From: Escherichia coli
GTDB taxonomy: Bacteria; Pseudomonadota; Gammaproteobacteria; Enterobacterales; Enterobacteriaceae
Assembly (NCBI RefSeq): GCF_001677475.2
Contig: NZ_CP015229.1
DNA: 64,000 bases
Reading direction: 5' to 3' (one strand)
The notes beneath the pieces are model-generated. The model was not told where the DNA came from and did not search any database. It was given only the letters and a program-made list of their open reading frames with translations. Both the position numbers and the translations under genes were made by a program. This document shows positions 1-1,022 of this stretch, piece by piece (the stretch's first letter is position 1; every line of letters starts with the position of its first letter).

Positions 1-628
1 CCCCAAAGACAGCGCCGGTATCAATATAATGCAGGTTGCCGATATCCACGCGATGGCGCAACGGTGTATGACCAAACCAGAAATGATCAGCACCTGTAAT
101 TCTCTGCCCTTTTTGGCGTTCACCTAATCGCGAGCGGCTCCACAAGACCTGATGCAAATCGACGTCCTTTTGCCATTCATAAACATCATCTGGATAATCG
201 GCATGAGCAATAACATGCTTGCCGGTGCGACTGTGTACTTCAAGAATAAAGGGCAAATGCTGACATTTTTCCAGCCCCGTTTTCGCTTGTTTCTGTTGAT
301 TATCTGCCAGCGTAATAAACCAGTCGCCGCCATTCATCAACCACAAAGACATCTGCTGGGATGCCAGCGCATCCATCGCCATCTGTTCATGATTGCCTCT
401 TACCGCACGAACCCAATGTTGTTCCAGTAACTGCAGACAACGTAAACTTTGCGGCCCACGATCGATAACGTCTCCCACTGAGATAAGTAAATCTCGCCAC
501 GGATCAAAACGACAATGCCATAATTTGCGGCGCAACTGCTCAAGACAACCGTGTATATCGCCAGAAAGCCAGATATGTCGCCATTGATGACCCGCAATTC
601 TTTGATAAACGGGCGCAGGCTGTTTCAT
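1..628 (-). CDS. pphA: Serine/threonine protein phosphatase 1 (PP1/PP2A-like metallophosphatase); partial, C-terminus runs off the window start
   Basis: Minus-strand ORF with start codon at 626-628; translation MKQPAPVYQRIAGHQWRHIWLSGDIHGCLEQL... contains the GDxHG and GNHE metallophosphatase motifs; position upstream of sdsR/yebY matches E. coli synteny. Confidence 0.85.
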   Translation of the reverse strand, partial: MKQPAPVYQRIAGHQWRHIWLSGDIHGCLEQLRRKLWHCRFDPWRDLLISVGDVIDRGPQSLRCLQLLEQHWVRAVRGNHEQMAMDALASQQMSLWLMNGGDWFITLADNQQKQAKTGLEKCQHLPFILEVHSRTGKHVIAHADYPDDVYEWQKDVDLHQVLWSRSRLGERQKGQRITGADHFWFGHTPLRHRVDIGNLHYIDTGAVFG

Positions 629-639
629 CAATATTTTCC

Positions 640-868
640 TCCCGCGCTAAAGATCACATAATCTTAACAAGAATGTTAAAAACGCTGGACTCAGACAGTA
701 GAGTGTGTGTTATGGTTGACTATAAAGTCAGCGAAGGGAATGCTTCTGGCTTTTAACAGATAAAAAGAGACCGAACACGATTCCTGTATTCGGTCCAGGG
801 AAATGGCTCTTGGGAGAGAGCCGTGCGCTAAAAGTTGGCATTAATGCAGGCTTAGTTGCCTTGCCCTT
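640..868 (+). ncRNA. ryeA: Antisense sRNA RyeA (SraC) overlapping sdsR; boundaries approximate
   Basis: Established knowledge that RyeA is transcribed opposite to and overlapping SdsR; I cannot fix the 5' or 3' ends from sequence alone. Confidence 0.3.
752..864 (-). ncRNA. sdsR: Small regulatory RNA SdsR (RyeB), RpoS-dependent
   Basis: Reverse complement of 752-864 reads GCAAGGCAACTAAGCCTGCATTAATGCC...GACCGAATACAGGAATCGTGTTCGGTCTCTTTTT, matching the SdsR sequence as I recall it; 3' stem-loop plus U-run; sigma-S-like -10 (TCTATTCTT) just upstream at about 870-880. Confidence 0.8.
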
Positions 869-1022
869 TAAGAATAGATGACGACGCCAGGTTTTCCAGT
901 TTGCGTGCAAAATGGTCAATAAAAAGCGCGGTGGTCATCAGCTTAAATGTTAAAAACCGCCCGTTCTGGTGAAAGAACTGAGGCGGTTTTTTTATTGGAA
1001 ATCAAAAGGCTATTTTAGGTAA

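What the first reader, a model, noticed from the sequence alone, without database searches (positions are those of the whole stretch)
620..1010. Overlapping antisense sRNA pair SdsR/RyeA between pphA and yebY
The SdsR sequence is readable on the minus strand with its terminator hairpin and a sigma-S-type -10 element. RyeA is known to be transcribed from the opposite strand, overlapping SdsR. A hairpin plus T-run at about 963-1000 (AAAACCGCC...GGCGGTTTTTTT) could terminate plus-strand transcripts and yebY from the other side. The RyeA boundaries cannot be fixed from sequence alone. This is a known locus, flagged because any ORF caller would miss it.
Basis: partly seen in the sequence, partly recalled or inferred. 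Interest (0 to 1): 0.25.

Follow-up and report, generated by a model that had tools for sequence, protein, structure and literature searches.

The report
Known SdsR/RyeA antisense sRNA pair

Summary
Confirmed and already known. Rfam gives full-length hits above threshold: SdsR_RyeB at 861-762 (-), 114 bits, and SraC_RyeA at 758-902 (+), 175 bits. The window is E. coli, and the locus aligns to K-12 MG1655.

- **SdsR:** 865/864→762 (-), 104/104 identical to K-12.
- **RyeA:** 724→993/995 (+), three substitutions against K-12.
- **ryeA promoter:** -10 TATGGT at 711-716, matching the hexamer mutated by Choi et al. 2019.
- **sdsR promoter:** σS-type, -35 TGGAAA at 898→893, 16-bp spacer, C-13 at 877, -10 TATTCT at 876→871.
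it spans 952-993 and terminates in both directions. It ends RyeA (3' RACE ends map to 984-993) and, by inference, the yobA-yebZ-yebY operon.

Corrections are minor. SdsR ends at 762, not 752. RyeA boundaries can be fixed by homology to mapped K-12 ends. The Rfam RyeA model is mostly antisense SdsR, so its hit is not independent evidence.

Side finding: the last ~32 bp of sdsR (761-792) is an empty phage attachment site. It holds a ~47-kb lambdoid prophage in 228 of 5426 complete E. coli genomes, and integrase genes or remnants flank it in 30 of 107 other species. This was known for Salmonella (Balbontín 2008).

The parts
1..628 (-). pphA (phosphoprotein phosphatase 1) coding sequence, 5' 209 codons; the 3' end is cut by the window start
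   Evidence: ATG at 628 on the minus strand. Annotated pphA in the 99.9%-identical strain KV7 and in MG1655.
629..761 (-). Spacer from the sdsR terminator to pphA; 5' leader of the sdsR-pphA read-through transcript
   Evidence: Choi 2019: pphA is transcribed mainly from the sdsR promoter by read-through of the sdsR terminator. Sequence matches K-12 apart from a 1-nt shorter A run near 678-682 and G738 (A in K-12).
708..716 (+). ryeA σ70 promoter: -10 TATGGT (711-716), preceded by TG at 708-709 (reading it as an extended -10 is my inference)
   Evidence: Primers RyeA-p3 and PM_RyeAF replace exactly TATGGT with CTCGAG and abolish RyeA. Eσ70 alone transcribes ryeA in vitro. Identical to K-12.
724..995 (+). 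RyeA (SraC) sRNA, about 270 nt. +1 = A724 (AAAGTCAGCG...); mapped 3' ends at 984-993; the K-12 annotation ends at 995
   Evidence: MG1655 ryeA 1923066-1923337 maps to 724-995. The 3' RACE primer starts at +1. 3' RACE ends are +261 to +270. RF00101 covers 758-902. Three substitutions against K-12, at 738, 929 and 944.
762..865 (-). SdsR (RyeB) sRNA, 104 nt as annotated. Primer-extension start at 864; 3' ends at 765-763; processed 5' ends at about 834-831
   Evidence: RF00111 at 861-762, 114.4 bits. MG1655 sdsR maps here and is 104/104 identical. Ends from Choi 2019 Table 1. Fold -35.2 kcal/mol, z = -3.8.
762..798 (-). SdsR Rho-independent terminator: stem 768-798 (11 pairs, with a U·G at 776/788) followed by a U run at 762-766
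   Evidence: Terminator scan hit and MFE structure. Across 104 homologs the helix is paired in 99.7% of cells, and 4 pairs show changes on both sides.
761..792 (.). Unoccupied phage attachment site (attB core TAAAAAGAGACCGAACACGATTCCTGTATTCG), overlapping the SdsR 3' end and terminator
   Evidence: The core is duplicated at both ends of a ~47-kb lambdoid prophage in NZ_CP074756.1. The phage-arm junction is present in 228 of 5426 E. coli genomes. Integrase homologs sit next to the sdsR 3' end in 30 of 107 species loci. Known for Salmonella. In the window the site is empty.
871..898 (-). sdsR σS-dependent promoter: -35 TGGAAA (898→893), 16-bp spacer, C-13 (877), -10 TATTCT (876→871), A/T-rich TTAAA after the -10
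   Evidence: Primers PM_SdsRF/R replace AGAATA (plus strand, 871-876) with CTCGAG and abolish SdsR. σS selectivity features are listed in Fröhlich 2012. The CTGGAAAAC and CTAyxCTTAA motifs are conserved across genera. The -35 assignment is my inference from the 16-bp spacer.
952..993 (.). Bidirectional intrinsic terminator. It ends RyeA on the plus strand (T run 987-993) and, on the minus strand (T run 956→952), sits 30 nt after the yebY stop codon
   Evidence: Folds at -20.0 (plus, z = -4.3) and -19.8 (minus, z = -5.6) kcal/mol. RyeA 3' RACE ends at 984-993, and in vitro RyeA of ~270 nt indicates Rho-independent termination. Its role for the yebY operon is inferred from position only.
1023..1364 (-). 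yebY (DUF2511 protein), last gene of the yobA-yebZ(copD)-yebY cluster upstream of sdsR
   Evidence: ORF of 113 aa and annotations. A yebY homolog lies upstream of sdsR in 102 of 106 species loci.

Best explanation
Window 708-995 is the E. coli sdsR/ryeA locus: two convergent, fully overlapping small-RNA genes between pphA and yebY.

Shown by sequence here:
- A σS-type promoter (898→871, minus strand) drives the 104-nt SdsR (864/865→762), which ends at an intrinsic terminator.
- A σ70 promoter (-10 at 711-716, plus strand) drives the ~270-nt RyeA (724→993), which contains the complete antisense of SdsR and ends at a bidirectional terminator (952-993).

Transferred from published K-12 and Salmonella experiments. 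This is justified because SdsR and both -10 hexamers are identical to K-12, and the terminator hairpin and promoter regions carry none of the differences seen between the window and K-12:
- In stationary phase, RpoS makes SdsR. SdsR binds Hfq and represses trans targets by short base pairing (tolC, yhcB, mutS; ompD in Salmonella).
- In exponential phase, RyeA predominates.
- The two RNAs form a ~102-bp duplex that RNase III cleaves, so each lowers the level of the other.
- RyeA is described as an RNA antitoxin to the RNA toxin SdsR (a type VIII toxin-antitoxin pair).
- Part of sdsR transcription reads through the terminator and provides most pphA mRNA.

In addition, the last ~32 bp of sdsR is an empty attachment site for λ/HK022-family integrases.
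For: - Rfam full-length hits above gathering score on both strands.
- MG1655 annotates ryeA and sdsR at the homologous positions. The alignment is 99% identical, SdsR is 104/104 identical, and RyeA has 3 substitutions.
- The hexamers mutated by Choi 2019, the RACE primer starts and the RACE ends all map cleanly onto the window.
- Both terminators fold far better than shuffled sequence.
- The locus is core genome, present in 5425 of 5426 complete E. coli genomes.
- Across 104 homologs the SdsR structure is 93.8% paired, against 20-44% when partners are slid, with compensatory changes in the terminator and 5' hairpin.
- yebY is upstream in 102 of 106 loci.
- Mechanism from the literature: σS dependence, Hfq association and ompD targeting; mutual degradation, read-through into pphA and transcriptional interference; RNase III dsRNA products, where this was the top stationary-phase cluster; type VIII TA classification.
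Against: - No expression data exist for this strain. Everything functional is transferred from K-12 and Salmonella.
- RyeA differs from K-12 at 738, 929 and 944. Position 738 falls in a predicted loop. Positions 929 and 944 were not placed on the fold. No effect was tested for any of the three.
- The physiological weight of the toxin-antitoxin reading is debatable. RyeA's own 5' part and promoter are conserved essentially only in Escherichia. [quoted passage not shown]
- The generic promoter scan missed both promoters, and the terminator scan missed the 952-993 hairpin. Both promoters have weak -35 boxes and the hairpin has a long interrupted loop, so those negatives say little.
Confidence: 0.95

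Rival explanations
1. RyeA is not a dedicated antitoxin RNA. It is mainly a lineage-specific antisense transcript whose act of transcription (polymerase collision) delays SdsR and pphA expression, and SdsR is the only selected RNA product of the locus.
For: - RyeA-specific segments are barely conserved. Median identity to the window is 0.26 for the 5' unique part and 0.29 for the promoter, and only E. coli and one Escherichia sp. reach 0.8. The SdsR core has a median of 0.97.
- Fröhlich 2012: sraC is poorly conserved, its promoter position varies, and SdsR rises only ~1.5-fold without SraC.
- Choi 2019: ryeA transcription, not RyeA RNA supplied in trans, represses sdsR-pphA read-through.
- The phage att site separates ryeA from its promoter in lysogens without loss of sdsR.
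Against: - Choi 2019 shows mutual degradation when the RNAs are co-expressed, and earlier SdsR appearance in the ryeA promoter mutant.
- RNase III dsRNA fragments from this locus are abundant in vivo.
- TADB lists the pair as an experimentally validated type VIII toxin-antitoxin system.
- The two views are not mutually exclusive.
Confidence: 0.3
2. The plus-strand transcript is a small mRNA: RyeA encodes a short peptide (candidate ORFs 810-881, 23 aa, or 856-972, 38 aa).
For: Two short ORFs lie within 724-995 on the plus strand.
Against: - Both start with TTG.
- They are the kind of ORF expected by chance in 270 nt.
- The region outside the SdsR overlap is poorly conserved between genera.
- None of the papers read here describes RyeA as coding. 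All treat it as an sRNA.
Confidence: 0.02
3. The Rfam matches are chance or decayed remnants, and the spacer is just a terminator-rich intergenic region.
For: None beyond the general caution that consensus scans are weak evidence.
Against: - E-values of 1.8e-21 and 2.9e-40 with full model coverage.
- SdsR is identical to the experimentally characterised K-12 gene.
- The locus is present in 5425 of 5426 genomes.
- Covariation supports the structure.
Confidence: 0.01

Closest known systems
E. coli K-12 sdsR (ryeB, b4433) / ryeA (sraC, b4432) locus; Rfam RF00111 and RF00101 (clan CL00105)
   Same: Same position (pphA-yebY spacer), same strands, SdsR 104/104 identical, the same mapped -10 hexamers, start sites and terminators.
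   Different: Three substitutions in RyeA outside the SdsR overlap (G738, C929, T944, against A, T, G in K-12). The A run upstream of the ryeA promoter is one base shorter. No functional difference is expected.
Type VIII toxin-antitoxin systems (RNA toxin plus RNA antitoxin): SdsR/RyeA and creTA
   Same: This locus is the founding SdsR/RyeA example: overlapping RNAs on opposite strands, with the antitoxin neutralising the toxin by duplex formation and degradation.
   Different: - Unlike classic toxin-antitoxin modules it is chromosomal core genome.
- The 'toxin' is a conserved Hfq-dependent regulator.
- The 'antitoxin' is poorly conserved outside Escherichia.
- Toxicity was shown on overexpression, according to the literature, and was not tested here.
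ryeB/ryeA insertion hot spot of Salmonella (Balbontín et al. 2008; phage ΦW104 attB in the last 23 bp of ryeB)
   Same: The 3' end of sdsR is the attachment core. The phage carries a copy that rebuilds sdsR, and ryeA loses its native 5' part and promoter.
   Different: - Here it is seen in E. coli, in 228 of 5426 genomes, with a ~47-kb lambdoid prophage that carries nleC in the genome examined.
- The identity block is ~32 bp.
- Integrase genes or remnants appear at this site in 30 of 107 sampled species.
- The window itself carries the empty site.
Other σ-factor-dedicated enterobacterial core sRNAs (e.g. σE-dependent MicA/RybB) and cis-antisense sRNA pairs cleaved by RNase III
   Same: A near-consensus alternative-σ promoter driving an Hfq-binding repressor sRNA. 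A long perfect duplex with an antisense partner, processed by RNase III.
   Different: SdsR combines both modes: it acts in trans on mRNAs and is itself the cis target of an overlapping sRNA gene. Its promoter also feeds a downstream protein gene, pphA.

Membership tests
SdsR_RyeB (Rfam RF00111) | Covariance-model score at or above the curated gathering score, over the full model | tested here: met
   114.4 bits against 38, E = 1.8e-21, model positions 1-100 of 100, window 861-762 (-).
SdsR_RyeB (Rfam RF00111) | Three-hairpin architecture ending in a Rho-independent terminator, supported by covariation | tested here: met
   - MFE -35.2 kcal/mol, z = -3.8, and a terminator scan hit.
- 104 homologs: 93.8% of cells paired against 20-44% when slid. 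The terminator helix is 99.7% paired, with 4 pairs changed on both sides.
- The middle hairpin was invariant by construction of the search pattern.
SdsR_RyeB (Rfam RF00111) | Located downstream of yebY on the same strand | tested here: met
   yebY at 1364→1023 (-) and sdsR at 865→762 (-). yebY is upstream in 102 of 106 species loci. Fröhlich 2012 states the same.
SdsR_RyeB (Rfam RF00111) | σS-selective promoter (C at -13, A/T-rich discriminator, 16-bp spacer) | tested here: met
   TGGAAA, 16 bp, C, TATTCT, TTAAA on the minus strand at 898→866. The hexamer matches the one mutated by Choi 2019. Criteria are from Fröhlich 2012.
SdsR_RyeB (Rfam RF00111) | RpoS-dependent stationary-phase expression, Hfq binding, repression of trans targets | not testable with these tools
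   Literature only. Transfer rests on 104/104 identity to K-12 SdsR.
SraC_RyeA (Rfam RF00101) | Covariance-model score at or above the gathering score | tested here: met
   175.1 bits against 37, window 758-902 (+). Caveat: the model is mostly antisense SdsR and also hits Yersinia (169 bits) and Shewanella (51-53 bits). This feature alone does not show that RyeA exists.
SraC_RyeA (Rfam RF00101) | Own σ70 promoter downstream of the sdsR terminator and own terminator upstream of the sdsR promoter, giving a ~250-270-nt RNA that spans all of SdsR | tested here: met
   -10 TATGGT at 711-716 and +1 at 724 are identical to the mapped K-12 elements. The terminator at 952-993 folds at -20 kcal/mol and coincides with 3' RACE ends +261 to +270.
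Type VIII toxin-antitoxin system (SdsR/RyeA type) | Toxin RNA and antitoxin RNA encoded on opposite strands with overlap | tested here: met
   SdsR 864→763 lies wholly inside RyeA 724→993, at RyeA positions 40-141. This is the TADB criterion.
Type VIII toxin-antitoxin system (SdsR/RyeA type) | Toxin overexpression kills or arrests cells (through yhcB repression) and the antitoxin RNA rescues them | not testable with these tools
   Reported by Choi et al. 2018, as cited.
Phage attB at the ryeB/sdsR 3' end (Balbontín 2008 type) | Core sequence at the sRNA 3' end duplicated at both prophage borders, with an integrase gene at the junction | tested here: met
   - Met in other genomes: a 32-bp core at both ends of the prophage in NZ_CP074756.1, with int and xis abutting sdsR.
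- The junction is present in 228 of 5426 genomes, and integrase is present in 30 of 107 species loci.
- In the window the site (761-792) is intact and empty.

The most novel reading that the evidence does not exclude
The empty att core inside the SdsR terminator could make this locus a switch that responds to lysogeny.
- In the ~4% of E. coli genomes with a prophage at this site (nleC-carrying in the one genome examined), integration rebuilds sdsR. It even replaces the U·G pair in the terminator stem with U-A.
- Integration also moves the ryeA promoter and pphA ~47 kb away.
- That should remove both RyeA-mediated degradation and ryeA transcriptional interference, and cut off σS-driven pphA expression.
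- The phage would thereby rewire an RpoS-controlled envelope and mutagenesis regulator of its host.

Separately, SdsR-like genes with Rfam scores of 62-87 bits exist in Shewanella and Paraglaciecola. The family may therefore be older than Enterobacterales.
Probability: 0.35. Interest if true: 0.4.

Novelty: already known. Interest (0 to 1): 0.1.

Why it matters
For the scan, the value is as a positive control: a reader working from raw sequence correctly recognised a non-coding locus, and the PGAP-annotated genomes listed here show no feature at that spot.

Biologically the locus is textbook material. SdsR is a core RpoS-dependent Hfq sRNA that regulates porins, efflux (tolC), mismatch repair (mutS) and envelope biogenesis (yhcB). 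RyeA is its antisense antagonist. Nothing in this window departs from K-12 in a way likely to matter.

Two points may be useful to others:
- An Rfam SraC_RyeA hit does not show that a RyeA gene exists.
- The sdsR 3' end is a widely used, here unoccupied, phage integration site in E. coli as well as in Salmonella.

Tried and rejected
1. **Generic promoter and terminator scan.** It found only the SdsR terminator and one chance-level promoter-like site (1039→1012, with 1.3 expected). It missed both mapped promoters and the 952-993 terminator, so I did not use it as negative evidence.
2. **IS insertion as the cause of split loci.** I first suspected this for the ~230 E. coli genomes where the locus is split. 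The first example was an IS10/ISVsa5 insertion, but that junction is unique to one genome. The common break is at the sdsR 3' end and is a prophage.
3. **PMC5495878 (transposon paper mentioning ryeA).** It concerns expression changes, not an insertion at this locus.
4. **RF00101 as independent evidence for RyeA.** Rejected after it scored in Yersinia and Shewanella.
5. **Coding potential of RyeA.** There are only two TTG-start ORFs of 23 and 38 aa. I did not pursue this further.
6. **Technical failures.** A batch fold failed on a length limit. One sandbox script failed because loci had not yet synced. All three were redone by other means.
7. **5' hairpin of SdsR.** It scored only 76.7% paired because the MAFFT alignment shifts register between genera. 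I did not realign with a covariance model because the answer would not change.

Full report
**Observation.** I read window 1-1800 and ran all of Rfam 15 over the 64-kb window at gathering thresholds. Two of the four hits fall in the finding. SdsR_RyeB (RF00111) hits 861-762 on the minus strand at 114.4 bits (gathering score 38, E = 1.8e-21, model 1-100 of 100). SraC_RyeA (RF00101) hits 758-902 on the plus strand at 175.1 bits (gathering score 37, E = 2.9e-40, model 1-145 of 145). The ORF list and BLAST against 5426 complete E. coli genomes identify the neighbours. pphA has its start codon at 628 on the minus strand and is truncated by the window start. yebY lies at 1364→1023 (-), followed by copD/yebZ and yobA.

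**Exact boundaries.** MG1655 (NC_000913.3) annotates ryeA at 1923066-1923337 (+) and sdsR at 1923104-1923207 (-). Aligning window 600-1030 with the K-12 spacer gives 99% identity with one 1-nt indel. This places ryeA at window 724-995 and sdsR at 865→762. SdsR is 104/104 identical to K-12. RyeA differs at three positions outside the overlap: G738, C929 and T944.

Choi et al. 2019 (PMC6610125) mapped the ends experimentally:
- The SdsR start site is the G of GCAAGGCAAC, which is window 864, one nucleotide inside the annotation. Its 3' ends at +100 to +102 map to 765-763.
- RyeA +1 is the A of AAAGTCAGCG, which is window 724, and the paper reports two further start sites upstream of it. Its 3' ends at +261 to +270 map to 984-993.
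- The -10 elements are the hexamers they replaced with CTCGAG: TATGGT at 711-716 for ryeA, and TATTCT at 876→871 on the minus strand for sdsR.

**Promoters and terminators.** The sdsR promoter reads TGGAAA, a 16-bp spacer, C, TATTCT, then TTAAA on the minus strand (898→866). These are the σS-selectivity features listed by Fröhlich et al. 2012: C at -13, an A/T-rich discriminator and a 16-bp spacer. The -35 assignment is my inference. The ryeA -10 is preceded by TG one base upstream, and reading that as an extended -10 is also my inference. The SdsR terminator (stem 768-798, U run 762-766) was found by the consensus scan and in the MFE fold.

It folds at -20.0 kcal/mol on the plus strand (z = -4.3) and -19.8 on the minus strand (z = -5.6), and it has a T run on each side. 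It coincides with RyeA's mapped 3' ends. In vitro transcription gave a ~270-nt RyeA, which Choi et al. attribute to Rho-independent termination. It sits 30 nt after the yebY stop codon, so it probably also ends the yobA-yebZ-yebY operon. That part is inferred from position only.

**How it works.** Sequence shows two convergent genes in which SdsR (864→763) lies wholly inside RyeA, at RyeA positions 40-141. The functional account below comes from the literature. I transfer it because SdsR and both -10 hexamers are identical to K-12, and none of the four differences between the window and K-12 falls in a promoter or terminator element.
- Transcription: EσS transcribes sdsR, and Eσ70 transcribes ryeA.
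- SdsR function: it is an abundant, Hfq-associated, stationary-phase sRNA. [quoted passage not shown]
- Mutual degradation: the two RNAs degrade each other. The ryeA-ryeB duplex is the most abundant stationary-phase RNase III dsRNA cluster captured by p19.
- Interference: transcription from the ryeA promoter, not RyeA RNA supplied in trans, interferes with sdsR transcription.
- Read-through: transcription passing the sdsR terminator supplies most pphA mRNA.
- Classification: the pair is catalogued as an experimentally validated type VIII (RNA-RNA) toxin-antitoxin system.

**Comparative test.** Median identity to the window by segment, over 107 loci with context:

| Segment | Median identity |
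|---|---|
| SdsR core | 0.97 |
| SdsR 5' hairpin | 0.90 |
| sdsR promoter | 0.71 |
| RyeA terminator | 0.52 |
| RyeA 5' unique part | 0.26 |
| ryeA promoter | 0.29 |

The two RyeA-specific segments reach 0.8 essentially only in Escherichia. This reproduces Fröhlich's statement that sraC is poorly conserved.

It also exposes a caveat. RF00101 hits wherever SdsR exists, including Yersinia at 169 bits and Shewanella at 51-53 bits, because the model is mostly antisense SdsR. The evidence for RyeA in this window is therefore identity to the mapped K-12 promoter and terminator, not the Rfam hit.

On 104 distinct homologs, the three-hairpin SdsR structure is paired in 93.8% of cells, against 20-44% when partners are slid. 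The terminator helix is 99.7% paired, and four of its pairs change on both sides. yebY lies upstream of sdsR in 102 of 106 loci.

**Side finding: an empty phage attachment site.**
- *Presence in E. coli.* The locus is present in 5425 of 5426 complete genomes, but about 230 carry it in two pieces. One case is a unique IS10 insertion with a 9-bp duplication, GGCTTAGTT, at window 849-857. The rest break at about window 760/761.
- *The prophage.* In NZ_CP074756.1 the break holds a ~47-kb lambdoid prophage. Its integrase and excisionase abut the sdsR 3' end, and it carries nleC next to the pphA side.
- *The core.* Both junctions share a 32-bp core that corresponds to window 761-792. The mixed variants at 776 and 788 place the crossover between them, in the terminator loop. 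That placement is my inference.
- *Consequences of integration.* The phage copy rebuilds sdsR. The ryeA promoter and first 37 nt, together with pphA, are left on the far side of the prophage.
- *Frequency.* The phage-arm junction occurs in 228 of 5426 genomes. Homologs of the integrase, full-length or decayed, lie 70-140 nt beyond the sdsR terminator in 30 of the 107 species loci.
- *Integrase family.* It is about 41% identical to HK022 Int.
- *Prior knowledge.* The phenomenon was described for Salmonella phage ΦW104 by Balbontín et al. 2008. It is an extension of known biology, not a new kind of thing.
- *This window.* The site is empty here.

**Verdict.** The locus is already known and essentially identical to K-12, so interest is low. 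Remaining uncertainty concerns biology already debated in the literature, namely how much RyeA matters as an antitoxin as opposed to a source of transcriptional interference. It does not concern what is in the sequence.

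Noticed in passing
window 761-792 (compare L004 19960-20010 and L005 27700-28050): The last ~32 bp of sdsR is an unoccupied phage attB. In 228 of 5426 complete E. coli genomes the phage-arm junction is present at this site; in the genome examined (NZ_CP074756.1) it is a ~47-kb lambdoid prophage with int/xis at the junction and nleC at the far end. Integration rebuilds sdsR but separates the ryeA promoter and pphA from it. Integrase genes or remnants flank the sdsR 3' end in 30 of 107 other species. Known for Salmonella (Balbontín 2008).
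   Followed up: yes
window 849-857 (compare L003 4150-5480): One E. coli genome (NZ_AP027783.1) has an IS10/ISVsa5 element inserted in the 5' part of sdsR, with the 9-bp target duplication GGCTTAGTT. From memory, this resembles the IS10 hot-spot consensus NGCTNAGCN. It is a natural sdsR/ryeA knockout and is unique among 5426 genomes.
   Followed up: yes
L032 9565-9667, L055 9745-9643, L068 2041-2143, L112 4204-4103, L099 11011-11110: SdsR-like genes occur outside Enterobacterales: four Shewanella loci (RF00111 at 82-87 bits) and one Paraglaciecola locus (62.5 bits). They share the central GCGCACGGCUCU...AGAGCCAUU motif and a terminator that pairs with different stem bases, but the 5' half is different. 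In the three Shewanella loci examined they lie downstream of an rsmF-like gene, not yebY. I did not check whether this is already recorded.
   Followed up: partly
window 758-902 and loci L006, L032 and others: The Rfam SraC_RyeA model (RF00101) is largely the reverse complement of SdsR. It scores above threshold in genera whose RyeA 5' part and promoter are not conserved, so it over-calls RyeA.
   Followed up: yes
window 776 / 788: The E. coli SdsR terminator stem has a U·G wobble (GUGUUCGG). Most other genera, and the phage-borne att copy, have U-A (GUAUUCGG). Lysogens therefore carry a slightly stronger SdsR terminator.
   Followed up: partly
window 36088-36395 (-): Full-length MicL sRNA hit (RF02654, 356 bits).
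   Followed up: no
window 49654-49731 (+): Full-length hit to the C0465 RNA family (RF00116, 97 bits).
   Followed up: no
phage record PP818812.1 (hit H151): The integrase of the E. coli sdsR-site prophage is 98% identical to that of a record named 'Actinobacillus phage vB_Apl-pPE4'. This is an odd host label for what looks like an enterobacterial lambdoid phage.
   Followed up: no
window 678-682: The A run upstream of the ryeA promoter, within the pphA 5' leader, is A5 here and in strain KV7 but A6 in K-12. This is a length polymorphism of unknown effect.
   Followed up: no
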